From the NCBI GenBank assembly GCA_001771545.1, contig MEUC01000002.1, forward strand, positions 3,909 through 67,908: a stretch of 64,000 nucleotides of DNA, given 5' to 3'. This stretch comes from a candidate division WOR-1 bacterium RIFOXYB2_FULL_42_35 (GTDB lineage: Bacteria; Margulisbacteria; WOR-1; O2-12-FULL-45-9). The position numbers were made by a program, and so were the translations under genes. The notes under the pieces are model-generated. The model did not search any database. It was not told where the DNA came from and saw nothing but the letters and a program-made list of their open reading frames with translations. Each line of letters opens with the position of its first letter. Position 1 is the first letter of the stretch. Below are positions 58,918 to 63,520 of the stretch, piece after piece.

Positions 58918-58998
58918 AAATTTCCCTCCACCCTTTGAAAAAATTATAACATACCCATATCCTTGCCACAACACGCCCGGTATAATATAATTCAGTTA

Positions 58999-60036
58999 AT
59001 GATCCTCTATTCATACTTTGAATTAGCGGCTTCTCTTTTTATCCTTTTGTTGGCTTTTCATCTGTTTACCAGTCACCATGAGTGTCGTTCGGCTAGGTTT
59101 TTTGTGCGCTTTGCTTTAATTGCTTTTCTGGCTTGTCTTTTCACTTATTCTTTAAGGATCGCCTTTACTCTTGAGTTGGCCAGAAATATTAATCGTATCT
59201 CGGCCACCTTAATCGCTTTTGCTTTTGCCGCCTTTACCCATTTTGTTTTGATCTTCACCAAAAAGGAACGCTTCTTAAATAGCCGGTGGGCACTGCCGCT
59301 TCTTTATGTTCCCCCGGCAATAATTGGCTGTTTATTTGTGTTTACCAACCTAATGTATTCTCGTTATGAAATCCTCTCTTATGGCATTGTCAGCCAACCC
59401 GCACCGCTCTACTTTCTCTTCCTACTACAAACCACTGCCTATAATTTTATTGGCATTTATTTGCTTTTCCTTTACTCTCGTTTGGCTCATCAAAAACTAG
59501 AACAACAACAAGCCTTGTTTTTGGCCATTGGCTCGATCGTTCCTGTAGCTCTGGGTATTTTTGCTGATCAAATCTTGCCGTTATTTTTAAATGGCCGATT
59601 GATCCCTCCTACTGTAGTGTTTGATTTTGCCTTGTGGAACTTTTTTATTTATCTGGCCATGCGCAAGTGTAGTCTGTTTGCAATTTCCCCCGGGGCAGCG
59701 GCCAGAACAATTATCGAAACCATGCCAGACTCTTTAATTGTTACGGATGTTGTTGGTCGGATTATGTTTATCAACGAGGAAGCCAAAAAATACTTTCATG
59801 CCACCAAGGAAGAGGTTCGCGGCAAAGAGATTCGCTCGCTTTTTGAGCAAAAAGACAAATATGATCAGCTTTACAAAGAGGTTGTCAACAATAACATGGC
59901 TGTTGAGCGTTTCGGGGTCACCTTATGTGATCCGCTGGGAGAATGCCTGCCATCTTTTATAAACGCCAATACTTTCCGCGATGACATCGGCGCCTTACTC
60001 GGTATTATTTTTGTGATCAGAGATGTGAGGGGATAA
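58999..60036 (+). CDS. Membrane sensor protein: multi-pass (about 7 TM) N-terminal domain plus C-terminal PAS domain, no output domain
   Basis: Hydrophobic helices through residue 250, then ...TIIETMPDSLIVTDVVGRIMFINEEAKKYFHATKEEVRGKEI... (PAS). Start uncertain (58963 or 58999). Confidence 0.6.
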   Translation: MILYSYFELAASLFILLLAFHLFTSHHECRSARFFVRFALIAFLACLFTYSLRIAFTLELARNINRISATLIAFAFAAFTHFVLIFTKKERFLNSRWALPLLYVPPAIIGCLFVFTNLMYSRYEILSYGIVSQPAPLYFLFLLQTTAYNFIGIYLLFLYSRLAHQKLEQQQALFLAIGSIVPVALGIFADQILPLFLNGRLIPPTVVFDFALWNFFIYLAMRKCSLFAISPGAAARTIIETMPDSLIVTDVVGRIMFINEEAKKYFHATKEEVRGKEIRSLFEQKDKYDQLYKEVVNNNMAVERFGVTLCDPLGECLPSFINANTFRDDIGALLGIIFVIRDVRG

Positions 60037-60657
60037 GCCACAACAAAAACAGCCTTATTTAACCGGGCTACCCCATCCAAAGAGGCCAGTAGGCATGTCC
60101 TGATAATCTAAACAACCCTCTGGGCTTATCCTCGGCTGGCCAGCCTATCCCAAAAGTTTTGCTAGCGGGGGCCTTCGCACCTTGGAACAAAACAAGGCGG
60201 CATACAACCAGAAGGAACTTGGCCAAAATCGCGCGAAAGTTCCCATCTGGTTTTTGATCCGGAAGAAACGTTATCCAGAAGTTTTTGGTTTGTTTTAGAT
60301 GTATCCAAAGGCCCGATTAATGTAGAAATTTTATCTCTATCAAATCTTCCTGACTTCCGCGTTTGCCTATTAATATTGGCTACTTGCCGTCTAAGTCTAA
60401 GCAAAAGAGAACCCCTATTATTTAAAAAATTAAGATTTTCAGTTGAACGCGGAAGTGGTCTACCTGAATAAGCACTTTTTTTGTAAAATAATTTGGAAGA
60501 TTTTCCCGCTGACACTAAAATATAATTATGGAAAATCGGGATCCCGACGTTTTCCAATTATTATCATATTATAATGTCCGTCGGGACACTTTTTCTGTAA
60601 ATTCCTTATTTTGGTCAAAACAGAGAAAAGCCCGGGTTTCTCTAGTTTACAATACTA

Positions 60658-60686
60658 TTGACACTTGGTTTACAATAGTTTACAAT
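60658..60686 (+). promoter_or_regulatory. Perfect-consensus promoter TTGACA-N17-TACAAT embedded in three direct GTTTACAAT repeats; the -10 lies 6 nt before the ATG, implying a leaderless mRNA
   Basis: TTGACA 60658-60663; TACAAT 60681-60686; GTTTACAAT at 60645, 60668 and 60678; palindrome AGAGAAAAGCCCGGGTTTCTCT at 60622-60643 just upstream. Confidence 0.6.
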
Positions 60687-60692
60687 CTTTCT

Positions 60693-61727
60693 ATGGTCAA
60701 AGACACTCCGGCAATAACCAAAGAAATACTTAAGGCTCGGGGGCAAATTACCAGCGACAAACTGGCTGGCTTTGCCCGGATCTCTCGACAAGCGGCGCAT
60801 AAATATTTGGCCAAGTTGGTTAAGCAAAAAAAACTACTCAAAATTGGCAAAACCAGGAAATCTTATTATCTGCCTTACTCCAGCCAAAAAGCCAAGCGCC
60901 TTGCACGGCGATCCAAAACAATCCGTTTGCAGCTTAAAAACAAAAACCTGCAAGAAGATCTAATTTTTGATCGTTTAAGCCTAACAGCTAACCTGGTTAG
61001 GCAGTTGCCTGATAATGCCAAAGGCATTTTTCGCTATGCTTTTACAGAAATACTTAACAATGCTATTGAACATTCTAAATCACCCAATATTGCCATTGAC
61101 ATCTATGAGCAGCAAGGTTTTATTTTTTTTAAGATTGTTGACCACGGCATTGGGATCTTTAACAAATTAAAGTCAAAATACCGCTTAAAAGACAACTTTG
61201 AAGCGGTTCAAGAACTGCTAAAAGGCAAAATAACCACCGCTCCCAAGGCCCATTCAGGGGAAGGCATTTTCTTTACTTCAAAAATTGCCGATTGCTTTAT
61301 TGTTGAAGCTGCTAAAATTAAGTTGGTGATAGACAACAAGGCCGCGGACGTGTTTGTTGAAGACATTGCTAACAAAAAAGGCACCGGAGTTACTTTTCAG
61401 TTCAATAAAAACTCAAAAAAAGAACTGAAAACATTGTTTGCTGAATATACTAACGAAGACTTCAAATTTTCTAAGACCAAAGTAACAGTAAAGCTCTACC
61501 AACATGGGGTAGATTATGTTTCCCGCTCACAAGCCAGACGGCTACTTTATGGCTTAGAAAAGTTTGAAGAAATCCTTCTGGACTTTAAAGGGATCAAAGG
61601 CATTGGCCAAAGCTTTGCTGATGAAATTTTTAGGGTCTTTGCCTCTGAGCACCCTAACATTGCTTTAATGCCTAACAATACGGCCGCTTCAGTTGTCTTT
61701 ATGATCAAAAGAGCTCAGGAAGGTTAA
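60693..61727 (+). CDS. Winged-helix DNA-binding domain fused to a GHKL (HATPase_c, RsbW-like) ATPase/kinase and a C-terminal STAS-like (DUF4325-like) domain
   Basis: wHTH ...[32 protein letters not shown]...; N-box [10 protein letters not shown]; G1 DHGIGI; G2 SGEGIFF; C-terminus ...[40 protein letters not shown]. Start moved from ORF-track 60528 to the ATG at 60693, directly behind the promoter. Confidence 0.65.
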
Positions 61728-61729
61728 AG

Positions 61730-63520
61730 ATGAGTTGTCCTACGCTTTATCCTAAACGCTACGATGTCATTGTCATCGGTGCCGGGCATGCGGGGATTGA
61801 AGCCGCCTTGGCCGCTGCTCGTTTGGGTTGCCAGACCTTGCTCTTAACAATGAACATCGACACCATTGCTTTTATGCCTTGTAATCCGGCCATTGGCGGT
61901 CCAGCCAAAAGTCAGCTTGTGCGAGAAGTTGATGCCTTGGGCGGGCAAATGGGAATTACAACAGACTTAACCTTTCTGCAAACGAAAACCTTAAACACCA
62001 ACAAAGGCCCGGCCGTCCATGCTTTACGTGCGCAATCAGACCGTTTGCAATACCATCAAGTTATGAAACGTCTGTTAGAAGAACAAAAAAATCTTGATTT
62101 AAAACAAGGGATGGTCGAAGAAATCTTGACGAATAAAACTCGCAACTCGCAACTCGCAACTATCGGGGTTAGAACAAAGCTAGAAACCATTTATCATGGC
62201 AAAACTGTTGTTGTAACAACTGGGACCTTTTTAAAAGGACGAATCCATACTGGCATGGTACACATGGAAAGTGGCCGGGCTGGAGAATTTCCAGCCGTAG
62301 GCCTATCTGCCAGTTTAAAAAAGCTAGGCTTGAAACTCGGTCGGCTTAAAACCGGCACCCCAGCCAGGTTAAATAAAAGATCCATAGATTTTTCCAAGAT
62401 GAGAATTCAACCGGGAGACGAACCGGTCAAACAGTTTTCTTTTACTTGGGAATACAAACAATATGGTTTAAAGGTTCCGGAAAACCCTCAACTAGAACTG
62501 CCTCAGGTTCCCTGTCACTTAACCTGGACAAATAATAAGACCCATAGAATTATAAGAAAAAACTTACATCGTTCCCCTCTTTTCTCCGGAAAAATCAAGG
62601 GGACGGGCCCAAGGTATTGTCCTTCTATTGAGGACAAGGTTGTTCGCTTTCCCGACAAAGACCGGCAGCAATGTTTTATTGAACCAACCGGCCGGGACAC
62701 CCTAGAAATGTATGCCCAAGGAATGAATAGTAGTTTACCGGCAGATGTTCAACTGGCGATGTTCCAAACTATGCCCGGCCTGGAAAAAGTGGAAATTATC
62801 CGCCCTGGTTATGCGGTTGAGTATGATTATGTGCCGCCTTATCAGCTCACTTATTCATTAGAAACAAAAATAGTTGGCGGTCTGTTTTGTGCCGGACAGA
62901 TTAACGGCACTTCAGGCTATGAAGAAGCTGCGGCTCAAGGCATTGTTGCTGGTATCAACGCAGTAATGAAGGTCAAAGGGAAAAAGCCAGTTCTGTTTGG
63001 CCGGGAAGAGTCTTATATTGGCACCTTAATTGACGACTTAATTACTAAAGATATTGAAGAGCCCTATCGCATGCTAACTTCACGATCAGAATACCGACTG
63101 CTGCTTAGGCAGGACAATGCTGACCTGCGTTTAACAGAAAAAGGTCATAAGGTTGGACTAATCTCAAAGAGCAGATATAACTGTTTTCGGAAAAAGAAAG
63201 AAGCACTTGAAGATAAAGCCAGGATTTCTCCGGAAGTATCGGAGCAAATCGATATTACCCAAAAATACGCTGGCTACATCGTCAGACAGCTGCAGCAAGT
63301 GGAAAGAGCTAAAAGATTAGAATATAAAACCATCCCTAAAAACCTAGATTTTAAGAACCTGCACGGCCTCTCAAAAGAAGCCAGATATAAACTGGAAAAG
63401 CTCCGGCCCGCTTCCATTGGCCAGGCCACCAGGATTGCCGGGGTCTCCCCTGCTGACATCTCTGTGCTGCTGGTTCACCTGGAAACATATAGACGCAAAA
63501 CCGGCTGCGTGATAAAATAA
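61730..63520 (+). CDS. mnmG: tRNA uridine 5-carboxymethylaminomethyl modification enzyme MnmG (GidA)
   Basis: [23 protein letters not shown]... (FAD fold). Contains an in-frame (CAACTCG)3 repeat at 62136-62160. Confidence 0.93.

What the first reader, a model, noticed from the sequence alone, without database searches (positions are those of the whole stretch)
60693..61727. Orphan wHTH–GHKL kinase-like–STAS-like (DUF4325-like) fusion protein with a self-contained partner-switching architecture and an iteron-built leaderless promoter
The protein combines an N-terminal winged helix, an RsbW-like GHKL ATPase (N-box [11 protein letters not shown]1 DHGIGI, G2 SGEGIF) and a C-terminal domain with the [21 protein letters not shown] motif that I associate with the STAS-like DUF4325. 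In canonical systems an anti-sigma kinase (RsbW) and its STAS antagonist (RsbV) are separate proteins; here both appear fused to a DNA-binding domain, suggesting a one-component ATP-dependent switch. Its promoter is a textbook TTGACA-N17-TACAAT made from three GTTTACAAT direct repeats, a possible autoregulatory iteron arrangement, with the ATG 6 nt after the -10. There are no partner genes nearby. Single-gene loci of this architecture are poorly characterised.
Basis: partly seen in the sequence, partly recalled or inferred. Interest (0 to 1): 0.6.

Follow-up and report, generated by a model that had tools for sequence, protein, structure and literature searches.

The report
Self-repressing kinase–STAS switch gene cassette
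One stand-alone gene encodes a DNA-binding domain, an anti-sigma-type ATPase/kinase and a STAS-like domain in a single chain, with a promoter built from the protein's own likely binding sites. It belongs to a large, uncharacterised, partly phage-borne family related to the recently described DNA-damage-sensing kinase/STAS regulators of bacterial immunity.

Summary
ORF 60693-61727 encodes a 344-aa protein with three domains: a winged helix, a SpoIIAB-like GHKL domain, and a DUF4325 (STAS-like) domain. Three exact GTTTACAAT repeats form a TTGACA-N17-TACAAT promoter that ends 6 nt before the ATG.

It is not an orphan. The family has at least 1000 clusters at 50% identity, spans many phyla, and includes 56 loci on viral contigs. 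It always occurs as one gene, with no conserved neighbour.

The strongest result concerns the upstream repeats.
- Nearly every homologue carries 2-5 copies of TT(G/T)ACAA(T/C) upstream, a 30-fold enrichment.
- The copies are spaced about 11 bp apart and overlap the -35 and -10 elements.
- Base 8 of the site covaries with residue 33 of the recognition helix (p = 2e-12).

The repeats are therefore best read as a self-operator that travels with the gene.

The closest characterised relatives are CapK/CapS and VapK/VapS/VapC (EMBO J 2026); VapS is itself a DUF4325 protein. However, the serine phosphorylated in VapS, and in SpoIIAA by analogy, is an invariant glutamine here. Two family-specific serines (S277, S279) are invariant instead. 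Classical partner switching is therefore unlikely.

The output of the module is unknown. I rate it a new variant of a known kind, of moderate to high interest.

The parts
60575..60597 (+). Terminator-like hairpin (TGTCCGTCGGGACA plus a T-run) about 50 nt upstream of the first repeat. It probably insulates the cassette from upstream transcription.
   Evidence: The phage-borne homologues also show a hairpin and T-run just before their own promoter. Function is inferred.
60645..60653 (+). Operator/iteron copy 1, GTTTACAAT.
   Evidence: The motif family is enriched 30-fold upstream of homologues.
60656..60664 (+). Degenerate operator copy ATTGACACT, which contains the -35 hexamer TTGACA (60658-60663).
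   Evidence: In many homologues the -35 is supplied by a full TTGACAAT copy.
60668..60676 (+). Operator/iteron copy 2, GTTTACAAT.
60678..60686 (+). Operator/iteron copy 3, GTTTACAAT, which contains the -10 hexamer TACAAT (60681-60686). It ends 6 nt before the ATG.
   Evidence: Spacing of 10-12 nt between copies is the family norm.
60693..61727 (+). Coding sequence of 344 aa plus the stop codon. Identical to hypothetical protein A2291_04590 of candidate division WOR-1 bacterium RIFOXYB2_FULL_42_35.
60693..60878 (+). Winged helix-turn-helix domain (aa 1-62). The recognition helix lies around aa 30-41 ([12 protein letters not shown]).
   Evidence: HTH_11 E 4.6e-4. H-H-H-strand-strand topology. 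IclR and RbkR fold matches. Residue 33 covaries with operator base 8.
60954..61412 (+). SpoIIAB/RsbW-like GHKL ATPase/kinase domain (aa 88-240). N-box E119..N123 at 61047-61061; G1 D150-G154 at 61140-61154; lid K177-G-K-x-T-T; G2 H187-G191 at 61251-61265.
   Evidence: HATPase_c_2 above its cut-off. Best fold matches are SpoIIAB (1til_E, E 8.8e-7, TM 0.72-0.76). All motif residues are invariant in 131 sequences.
61458..61724 (+). DUF4325 STAS-like domain (aa 256-344). Invariant S277-R278-S279 at 61521-61529. Invariant G305-Q306 at 61605-61610, with Q306 in the place of the STAS phospho-serine.
   Evidence: Pfam DUF4325 E 7.7e-14. The domain model gives STAS fold matches, including RsbS, SpoIIAA, prestin and TM1442. 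Alignment to VapS S48. Invariance.
61730..63520 (+). mnmG (gidA). It starts 2 nt after the stop codon and its ribosome-binding site lies inside the end of the cassette gene. This is context only, not part of the module.
   Evidence: Downstream genes differ in all homologous loci.

Best explanation
The locus is an autonomous, self-repressing one-gene signalling cassette.

Step 1, well supported by comparison: the N-terminal winged helix binds the tandem TT(G/T)ACAA(T/C) sites. These sites are phased about 11 bp apart and form the -35 and -10 of the gene's own promoter. The protein therefore shuts off its own transcription. The transcript probably starts at or within a few nucleotides of the ATG.

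Step 2, supported by homology and invariance: the middle domain is a catalytically competent SpoIIAB/VapK-type GHKL ATP-binding domain. The C-terminal domain is a VapS-type (DUF4325) STAS domain. Together they are the kinase and its STAS partner of the CapK-CapS / VapK-VapS / SpoIIAB-SpoIIAA kind, joined in one chain.

Step 3, inferred by analogy with CapS, where STAS phosphorylation breaks the repressor dimer: ATP binding or turnover by the GHKL domain changes how the STAS domain docks or oligomerises. That in turn changes operator occupancy in response to a signal, possibly nucleic-acid or DNA-damage related as for CapK.

The switch cannot be the classical one, because the canonical phospho-serine is an invariant Gln (Q306). 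Two alternatives remain. Either the acceptor has moved to the nearby invariant S277 or S279, or the STAS domain acts as a non-phosphorylatable pseudo-substrate or ATP-dependent latch.

Step 4, open: the only target seen is the gene itself, and the cassette moves between genomes and phages as a terminator-promoter-gene unit. Its pay-off is therefore most likely a conflict or stress function carried out by the protein itself, rather than control of a neighbouring operon.
For: Anatomy of the window locus.

Operator evidence:
- 68 of 84 distinct upstream regions from many phyla hold at least 2 TT[GT]AC[AG]A sites, against 29 of 7381 background windows. Density is 2.18 versus 0.073 sites per 100 nt.
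- Spacing between successive sites peaks at 11 nt (42 cases), 10-12 nt (55) and 21-23 nt (42).
- When recognition-helix residue 33 is Q, site base 8 is T (42 loci, against 3 with C). When it is not Q, base 8 is C (21 loci, against 2 with T). Fisher p = 2.4e-12.
- In the window the exact 9-mer occurs only at this promoter.

Kinase and STAS evidence:
- SpoIIAB is the best fold match.
- The C-terminal domain matches STAS folds.
- VapS homologues are PF14213 members.
- The best PDB sequence hit of the C-terminal profile is VapS.
- Split GHKL + DUF4325 gene pairs exist. The split GHKL of L001 is related both to VapK (E 1e-9) and to the window protein (E 4e-9).
- E119, N122/123, H127, G152/154, G178, H187, G189/191, S277, R278, S279, R283, Q306 and F308 are invariant in 131 sequences, and D150, K177 and K179 nearly so (129-130 of 131), down to about 33% identity.

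Mechanistic frame: Chambers et al., EMBO J 2026, PMC13373217.

Autonomy and mobility:
- No recurrent neighbour among 147 flanking genes.
- 56 relatives with the same architecture sit on viral contigs. About 15 of them lie between a late regulator and the small terminase subunit, behind a terminator and their own promoter.
- The gene's GC content is slightly below that of its flanks.
Against: - No binding, transcription start, ATPase or phosphorylation data exist for any family member.
- The Q-for-S replacement removes the one step that defines the known systems, so the analogy may fail at the mechanism.
- The VapS alignment is marginal by E-value (0.03). It is, however, reproduced by MAFFT with three other DUF4325 proteins.
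- The inter-domain geometry of the model is uncertain (pTM 0.57), and I could not inspect coordinates.
- The covariation test is not corrected for phylogeny.
- There is no PADLOC hit and no enrichment of defence genes next to the chromosomal copies, so a conflict role is conjecture.
- Start codons in the homologous loci were assigned heuristically, and the Shine-Dalgarno control was uninformative (17% versus 28%).
Confidence: 0.55

Rival explanations
1. It is an ordinary one-component transcription factor with a distant regulon. The GHKL-STAS part is merely a sensory or ATP-gauging module, and autoregulation is a side feature. The protein controls housekeeping or stress genes elsewhere in the genome.
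For: - Chromosomal copies sit among housekeeping genes, in small-genome lineages such as Patescibacteria.
- No toxin or effector domain is present.
- A few operator-like clusters occur upstream of other genes in the fetched flanks, for example a Fic-wHTH gene in L052 and small HTH genes in L035 and L072.
Against: - In the 64-kb window the motif clusters only at the gene's own promoter.
- Only 29 of 7381 background windows in about 0.86 Mb of flanks hold at least 2 sites.
- The family is patchy across species.
- It is carried by phages as a self-contained unit.
- The other genes that carry the motif encode their own similar HTH domain, so they may regulate themselves.
Confidence: 0.2
2. It is a single-gene anti-phage, superinfection-exclusion or addiction module. 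The kinase is the effector, phosphorylating host or phage proteins, or the DNA-binding domain blocks promoters when derepressed. Tight self-repression keeps it harmless until it is triggered.
For: - The nearest characterised relatives regulate or constitute immune systems (CapKS, VapKSC).
- Relatives sit in prophages at typical accessory-gene ('moron') positions, behind their own terminator and promoter.
- They are occasionally adjacent to SoFic-like, AbiEi and other candidate defence genes.
- The operator equals the consensus -35 and -10 hexamers, so excess protein could compete with RNA polymerase.
Against: - No PADLOC model matches.
- Defence genes are not enriched among 147 immediate neighbours; the maximum is 3 for any family.
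- There are no hits in 50,697 GenBank phage records.
- Nothing shows toxicity.
Confidence: 0.17
3. It is a true anti-sigma module, as the first reader proposed in extended form. The GHKL domain sequesters a sigma or sigma-like factor, and the STAS domain releases it. In phages the target would be the sigma-70 region-4-like late regulator encoded just upstream.
For: - SpoIIAB, RsbW and UsfX are the best fold matches.
- In about 15 viral loci the gene directly follows a Sigma70_r4/DUF1492-type late regulator. In the Alicyclobacillus plasmid a Sigma70_r4_2 gene directly precedes the split GHKL + STAS pair.
Against: - No sigma-like gene lies next to the window copy or is recurrent among the 84 chromosomal loci.
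- The gap between late regulator and terminase is a general insertion hot spot in phages, so adjacency may be accidental.
- The STAS phospho-serine is missing.
- No PP2C phosphatase is present.
Confidence: 0.06
4. The repeats are only promoter elements or low-complexity chance matches in an AT-rich spacer, and the protein does not bind them.
For: - TTGACA and TACAAT are expected at any strong promoter.
- The total count of TTKACAAT in the window is not above chance: 9 observed against 8.2 expected.
Against: - Three exact 9-mers fall within 42 nt, where about 0.9 is expected in the whole window.
- The same motif recurs in 2-5 phased copies upstream of homologues in unrelated genomes, including high-GC ones.
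- The motif changes together with the recognition helix.
Confidence: 0.02

Closest known systems
CapK + CapS, 'controllers of adjacent pathways' (Chambers et al., EMBO J 2026, PMC13373217)
   Same: - The same three domain types are used: HTH, anti-sigma-type GHKL kinase and STAS.
- A STAS-linked winged-helix repressor binds repeated sites in its own promoter and autoregulates.
- The kinase resembles SpoIIAB.
   Different: - CapK + CapS is two proteins (CapK is HTH-STAS-GHKL, CapS is STAS-wHTH). Here there is one chain in the order wHTH-GHKL-STAS.
- CapKS sits upstream of an immune operon. Here no operon is controlled.
- CapS has an absolutely conserved phospho-Ser54. Here that position is an invariant Gln.
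- The C-terminal domain here shows no similarity to the VapK N-terminal STAS, the CapK-like sensor domain. CapK itself was not compared.
- ssDNA activation has not been tested here.
VapKSC toxin-antitoxin/defence system (same paper)
   Same: - VapS is a PF14213/DUF4325 protein, the same Pfam family as the C-terminal domain here.
- The VapK GHKL domain is distantly related to the one here: E 0.005 directly, or 1e-9 and 4e-9 through the L001 split kinase.
   Different: - VapKSC is three genes with a PIN toxin. No toxin gene is present here.
- VapS S48 aligns with Q306.
- VapS has a C-terminal toxin-blocking helix that is absent here.
- VapK carries an N-terminal STAS sensor and no wHTH.
SpoIIAB-SpoIIAA / RsbW-RsbV partner-switching modules
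   Same: - The GHKL fold is closest to SpoIIAB (TM 0.72-0.76).
- The C-terminal domain has a STAS fold that matches SpoIIAA, RsbS and TM1442.
   Different: - The partners are fused and linked to a DNA-binding domain.
- There is no sigma factor and no PP2C phosphatase.
- The phospho-acceptor Ser/Thr is replaced by Gln.
Pfam PF14213 (DUF4325, STAS-like) and PHROG phrog_3364
   Same: - The protein is a bona fide member of PF14213 (51.6 bits against a cut-off of 23).
- The wHTH+GHKL part matches phrog_3364 (E 2.5e-10).
- Public annotations read 'DUF4325 domain-containing', 'STAS-like domain-containing' or 'anti-sigma regulatory factor'.
   Different: Both are labels of unknown function. Neither describes the fused architecture, the operator or the Gln substitution.
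Autoregulated wHTH modules of mobile single-gene or two-gene systems, such as the AbiEi antitoxin and SoFic-type Fic-wHTH proteins
   Same: - A winged helix binds repeats in its own promoter.
- Some family members hit PF13338 (AbiEi_4).
- A Fic-wHTH gene in L052 carries three CTTTACAAT repeats upstream.
   Different: The attached domains are a kinase and a STAS domain, not a nucleotidyltransferase partner or a Fic domain. No toxin activity is known.

Membership tests
Pfam PF14213 (DUF4325, STAS-like) | Sequence score above the curated gathering threshold. | tested here: met
   E 7.7e-14, 51.6 bits against 23, aa 280-322. The same domain is found in phage-borne relatives.
Pfam PF14213 (DUF4325, STAS-like) | STAS-type beta-alpha fold. 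| tested here: met
   The domain model has pLDDT 82.5. Its top PDB matches are STAS domains (RsbS TM 0.65, SpoIIAA 0.66, TM1442 0.64, prestin). E-values are only about 1e-2.
GHKL ATPase/kinase, SpoIIAB/RsbW subtype | Bergerat fold with an intact N-box (E..N), G1 (DxGxG) and G2 (GxG) motifs. | tested here: met
   HATPase_c_2 scores 29.7 bits against 27.4. The best fold match is SpoIIAB at E 8.8e-7. All motif residues are invariant or nearly so in 131 sequences.
GHKL ATPase/kinase, SpoIIAB/RsbW subtype | ATP-dependent serine kinase activity. | not testable with these tools
   Needs biochemistry.
SpoIIAB-SpoIIAA / RsbW-RsbV partner switching | STAS antagonist with a conserved phosphorylatable Ser/Thr at the start of helix 2. 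| tested here: not met
   The position is Q306 in 131 of 131 family members. It aligns with VapS S48 and with Ser in two other DUF4325 proteins.
SpoIIAB-SpoIIAA / RsbW-RsbV partner switching | Cognate sigma factor gene, usually with a PP2C phosphatase, in the locus. | tested here: not met
   The window flanks are a 7TM-PAS protein and mnmG. No recurrent sigma or PP2C gene occurs among 147 neighbours. Sigma-70 r4-like genes precede the gene only in about 15 phage loci and one plasmid locus.
CapK/CapS regulator pair | Two adjacent genes: HTH-STAS-GHKL kinase followed by a STAS-wHTH repressor. | tested here: not met
   There is a single gene in the order wHTH-GHKL-STAS. No second STAS or kinase gene is nearby.
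CapK/CapS regulator pair | Located directly upstream of an immune or stress operon whose promoter it represses. | tested here: not met
   Downstream genes differ in every locus and are often convergent.
CapK/CapS regulator pair | The repressor binds repeated sites in its own promoter (autoregulation). | tested here: inconclusive
   Comparative support is strong: enrichment, phasing and covariation. No binding experiment exists.
CapK/CapS regulator pair | Kinase activated by single-stranded DNA through a STAS-GHKL groove. | not testable with these tools
   The C-terminal domain is not similar to the VapK sensor STAS. Needs biochemistry or AlphaFold 3 with DNA.
VapKSC toxin-antitoxin | Three-gene operon ending in a PIN (VapC-like) toxin. 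| tested here: not met
   No PIN gene is present in the window locus or in homologous loci. Compare the E. coli vapKSC locus L091.
Known anti-phage defence systems (PADLOC 2.0) | Match to a defence-protein model. | tested here: not met
   No family at E <= 1.

The most novel reading that the evidence does not exclude
The family is a new kind of portable, one-protein immune or stress switch.
- The DUF4325 domain, with Gln in place of the phospho-serine, acts as a built-in pseudo-substrate that latches a SpoIIAB-like kinase. Alternatively, the acceptor has moved to S277 or S279.
- A trigger such as infection or DNA damage releases the latch.
- Release has two consequences. The gene is derepressed, since its operator is the consensus promoter itself. 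The kinase or anti-sigma surface is freed to act on other targets, for example the sigma-like late regulators of phages next to which many copies are encoded, or promoters that resemble its operator.

This would make it a single-gene counterpart of CapKS/VapKSC, with the effector, sensor and regulator all in one chain.
Probability: 0.15. Interest if true: 0.8.

Novelty: new variant of a known kind. Interest (0 to 1): 0.6.

Why it matters
GHKL-kinase/STAS pairs were long known only from sigma-factor partner switching. In 2026 they were shown to sense DNA damage and to control immune operons and a toxin.

This locus shows that the same parts also exist as a very widespread single-chain form. That form has more than 1000 clusters at 50% identity, is common in Patescibacteria and other uncultivated phyla, and occurs in gut prophages. 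It carries its own operator and promoter and has lost the canonical phospho-site.

It provides several things:
- A compact natural test case for how a STAS domain can gate a kinase without the classical serine.
- A ready-made DNA-recognition code: helix residue 33 against operator base 8.
- A portable, tightly self-regulated promoter that evidently works across phyla.
- A candidate one-gene conflict module, for which clear experiments can now be designed.

Tried and rejected
- Known defence system: no PADLOC match for the protein and no enrichment among neighbours.
- Conserved partner gene: clustering of 815 flanking ORFs and Pfam and PADLOC scans of 147 immediate neighbours found nothing recurrent. 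The largest group was a Fic-wHTH protein in 6 of 84 loci.
- GenBank phages and plasmids: tblastn gave no phage hit and only two weak plasmid hits. A VapS fragment found nothing in plasmids.
- Permuted CapK idea, in which the C-terminal STAS would be the sensor STAS of CapK/VapK: hhalign against VapK found no similarity, while VapS is in the same Pfam family. Rejected.
Rejected.
- Upstream 650-nt gap (60037-60690): no Rfam family at E <= 1, no tRNA, no unusual RNA folding (z = -1.0 and -1.6), no recognisable HisKA or HATPase remnant in the three forward frames by eye (not scanned against Pfam), and no Pfam hit for the minus-strand ORF.
- Shine-Dalgarno depletion as a test of the leaderless start: the control was uninformative, 17% against 28% with crude start calls.
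- Flanking direct repeats or target-site duplications around the cassette: none convincing.
- BFVD viral fold search: only separate GHKL, DUF4325 and HTH proteins, with no annotated full-length counterpart.
- Literature: three papers mention DUF4325, none functionally. No paper combines STAS, HATPase and wHTH.
Full report
**1. What is in the window**

The ORF runs from the ATG at 60693 to the TAA at 61725-61727 and encodes 344 aa. A longer reading from 60528 is possible, but homologues begin at the 60693 position.

The upstream sequence reads GTTTACAAT (60645), ATTGACACT (60656, containing TTGACA), GTTTACAAT (60668) and GTTTACAAT (60678, containing TACAAT), followed by 6 nt and the ATG. TTGACA-N17-TACAAT is the best promoter-like site in the region, matching 11 of 12 positions. 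The exact 9-mer occurs three times in the 64 kb, all at this spot, where about 0.9 copies are expected from composition. A terminator-like hairpin lies about 50 nt further upstream.

The protein is identical to a hypothetical protein of candidate division WOR-1 bacterium RIFOXYB2_FULL_42_35. The flanks are a 7TM-PAS protein and, 2 nt after the stop, mnmG.

**2. Domains**

- Pfam gives DUF4325 (E 7.7e-14), HATPase_c_2 (above its cut-off) and a weak HTH_11 match.
- An AlphaFold2 model built on 40 homologues (pLDDT 79.7) shows three parts: a winged helix (aa 1-61), a GHKL domain, and a C-terminal beta-alpha-beta-alpha-beta-alpha domain.
- Foldseek puts SpoIIAB first (E 8.8e-7, TM 0.72-0.76), followed by RsbW/UsfX-type anti-sigma kinases. 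IclR and RbkR match the winged helix.
- A separate model of the C-terminal 89 aa (pLDDT 82.5) matches STAS domains best: RsbS, SpoIIAA, TM1442 and prestin. The E-values are modest.

**3. Size and spread of the family**

- A word-indexed search found more than 6700 relatives, nearly all 335-355 aa with the same architecture.
- An exhaustive profile search of 1.84 billion representatives found 1015 clusters at E <= 1e-30.
They come from Patescibacteria (many), Omnitrophota, Saganbacteria, Melainabacteria, Planctomycetota, Nitrospirota, Actinomycetota, Acidobacteriota, Delta- and Gammaproteobacteria and others.
- IMG/VR holds 56 relatives at 33-45% identity with the same three domains.
- GenBank phages hold none, and plasmids hold two distant relatives.

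The gene is therefore not an orphan.

**4. Neighbourhood**

Seven loci with called genes, a clustering of 815 ORFs around 84 genome loci, and Pfam and PADLOC scans of 147 immediate neighbours show no recurrent partner. The maximum is 3 of 147 for any family. The most frequent neighbour within 5 kb is a Fic-wHTH protein, in 6 of 84 loci.

**5. The repeats are a conserved self-operator**

This is the main new result.

- *Recurrence.* The 70 nt upstream of nearly every homologue carries 2-5 copies of TT(G/T)ACAA(T/C). This holds even in high-GC genomes, where the copies read GTTGACGA or GTTTACGAT.
- *Enrichment.* Site density is 2.18 per 100 nt upstream against 0.073 in about 0.86 Mb of flanks. 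At least 2 sites occur in 68 of 84 distinct upstream regions, against 29 of 7381 background windows.
- *Phasing.* Successive sites are spaced at 11 nt (42 cases), 10-12 nt (55), 21-23 nt (42) and 32-34 nt (7), which is helical phasing.
- *Two layouts.* One layout uses direct repeats, as in the window. The other has two direct copies of GTTGACAACTT plus an inverted copy that brackets the -10.
- *Covariation.* The layout and base 8 of the site follow the recognition helix. With Q at residue 33 (SRQA or SRQY), the site ends in T in 42 loci and in C in 3. With A, T or V at 33 and Y at 34, it ends in C in 21 loci and in T in 2. Fisher p = 2.4e-12, not corrected for phylogeny, although both classes span 25-38% pairwise identity.
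- *Divergent members.* Those lacking this motif carry other repeats or palindromes at the same place.

A TTGACAAT copy supplies the -35 and a TTTACAAT copy supplies the -10, so operator and core promoter are the same DNA.

I conclude that the winged helix binds these sites and represses its own promoter. This is shown by comparison only, not by experiment.

In about a third of loci the last copy ends 0-11 nt before the start codon. That agrees with a leaderless or near-leaderless transcript, but it remains an inference.

**6. Relation to known systems**

The literature search led to Chambers et al., EMBO J 2026 (PMC13373217). That paper describes two systems.

- *CapK and CapS.* CapK (HTH-STAS-GHKL) is a kinase activated by ssDNA. 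It phosphorylates Ser54 of CapS (STAS-wHTH), which breaks the repressor dimer and derepresses an adjacent immune operon.
- *VapKSC.* VapK phosphorylates Ser48 of the STAS antitoxin VapS, which frees a PIN toxin.

The paper does not mention DUF4325 or a one-chain form.

My tests of the relationship gave these results:

- VapS homologues carry PF14213 (DUF4325).
- VapS is the best PDB hit of the C-terminal profile, at a marginal E of 0.03.
- A split pair of GHKL (320 aa) and DUF4325 (96 aa) genes lies right next to a fused copy in L001. It is related to VapK at E 1e-9 and to the window protein at E 4e-9 (GHKL) and 9e-5 (DUF4325).
- An Alicyclobacillus plasmid carries another split pair.
- An earlier survey noted VapC-like PIN.4 genes coupled to DUF4325 genes.
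- The C-terminal domain has no similarity to the VapK sensor STAS.

The window protein is therefore a fusion of a VapK/SpoIIAB-type kinase with a VapS-type substrate STAS domain, plus a winged helix.

**7. The twist**

VapS Ser48 (FA-S-PFF) aligns with Q306 (IG-Q-SF) in the HMM alignment. The same column is Ser in the Alicyclobacillus and Nostoc DUF4325 proteins, and Q preceded by T in the L001 split protein.

In 131 distinct family sequences, both genomic and viral, several positions are 100% invariant:

- Q306.
- S277-R278-S279 and R283, at the start of helix 1.
- All GHKL motif residues: E119, N122, N123, H127, G152, G154, G178, H187, G189, G191. D150, K177 and K179 are nearly invariant (129-130 of 131).

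Only R278 is shared with other DUF4325 proteins.

The enzyme is therefore under strong selection, but the classical acceptor is absent. Two readings remain. The acceptor may have moved to S277 or S279; by STAS topology these should lie beside the helix-2 N-terminus, though I did not verify this in coordinates. Alternatively, the domain may act as a non-phosphorylatable latch. I could not inspect the inter-domain geometry, and the model's pTM is 0.57.

**8. Mobility**

- In about 15 viral loci the gene order is: sigma-70 region-4/DUF1492-type late regulator, then a terminator, the gene's own operator-promoter, the gene itself, and then the small terminase, large terminase and portal genes.
- Other viral loci place the gene next to a serine integrase.
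- The relevant PHROG, phrog_3364, has no known function.
- In the window the gene's GC content is 0.37-0.40 against 0.42-0.46 in the flanks.

This is the signature of an autonomous accessory cassette. The sigma-like neighbour could be functionally linked to an anti-sigma-like kinase, or it could simply mark an insertion hot spot. I leave this open.

**9. Verdict**

The parts list and the autoregulatory promoter are right. 'Orphan' and 'partner switching' are not.
- The best explanation is a self-repressing, one-chain member of the kinase/STAS signalling modules with a non-canonical switch and an unknown output. My confidence is about 0.85 for autoregulation and about 0.55 for the whole model.
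- It is a new variant of a known kind, and the proposed experiments are straightforward.

Noticed in passing
window 58963-60036 (+): The upstream ORF is HisKA_7TM + PAS (E 7e-13 and 2e-11) and stops right after the PAS domain, with no HisKA or HATPase transmitter. It looks like a sensor kinase without its kinase core, either a stand-alone sensor or a truncated gene.
   Followed up: partly
window 60037-60690: A 650-nt stretch has no convincing ORF and is richer in GC at 60060-60260. It gives no Rfam hit, no tRNA and no unusual folding energy, and I saw no HisKA or HATPase remnant in the translated frames. Its nature is unexplained.
   Followed up: partly
window 61725-61732: mnmG starts 2 nt after the stop codon of the cassette gene, and its ribosome-binding site (AGGAAGG) lies inside the cassette's last codons. 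mnmG may therefore be partly transcribed from the self-repressed promoter in this genome. The arrangement is not conserved elsewhere.
   Followed up: no
L001 9265-14190: Directly after a fused family member lies a split system: a VapK-like GHKL gene (320 aa), a translationally coupled DUF4325 gene (96 aa), an APH-type kinase-like gene and a 782-aa protein of unknown function. This is a VapKS-like pair with different downstream genes from the published PIN toxin. The GHKL protein also hits the N-terminus of a PADLOC DrmA model (E 9.5e-15).
   Followed up: partly
L052 1143-2218 (-): A Fic/DOC protein with a C-terminal winged helix has three CTTTACAAT repeats, 11-13 nt apart, just upstream of its start. 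Its relative in L029 has an 'RQA' recognition helix like the family's. This is the same operator type as the family gene 2.6 kb away, so the operator and helix pair may be shared between different mobile one-gene modules. Fic-wHTH genes lie within 5 kb in 6 of 84 loci.
   Followed up: partly
L035 9296-9640; L072 2201-2500: Small HTH proteins with an 'ISRQ(A/S)' helix are preceded by operator-like TTGACAA/TTGTAAAC clusters. In L035 the next ORF overlaps the gene's stop codon, which resembles a toxin-antitoxin pair. The same DNA motif is used by other small regulators in these genomes.
   Followed up: no
L148 79-1748 (Alicyclobacillus acidocaldarius plasmid pAACI02): A Sigma70_r4_2 protein gene, a 297-aa GHKL-like hypothetical gene and a STAS-like (DUF4325) gene lie in a row, next to IS elements. 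This is a sigma-like + kinase + STAS trio that resembles the order seen in the phage loci.
   Followed up: partly
L117-L145 (IMG/VR contigs, mostly human-gut metagenomes): In about 15 phage contigs the family gene is inserted between the DUF1492/Sigma70_r4-type late regulator and the small terminase subunit. It is preceded by an intrinsic terminator and a palindromic operator that overlaps a TTTACA-N17-TATAGT promoter.
   Followed up: partly
L125 3914-5906; L126 7872-9724: Two adjacent or overlapping ORFs both match the family in these viral loci. This could be a tandem duplication or a frameshifted copy.
   Followed up: no
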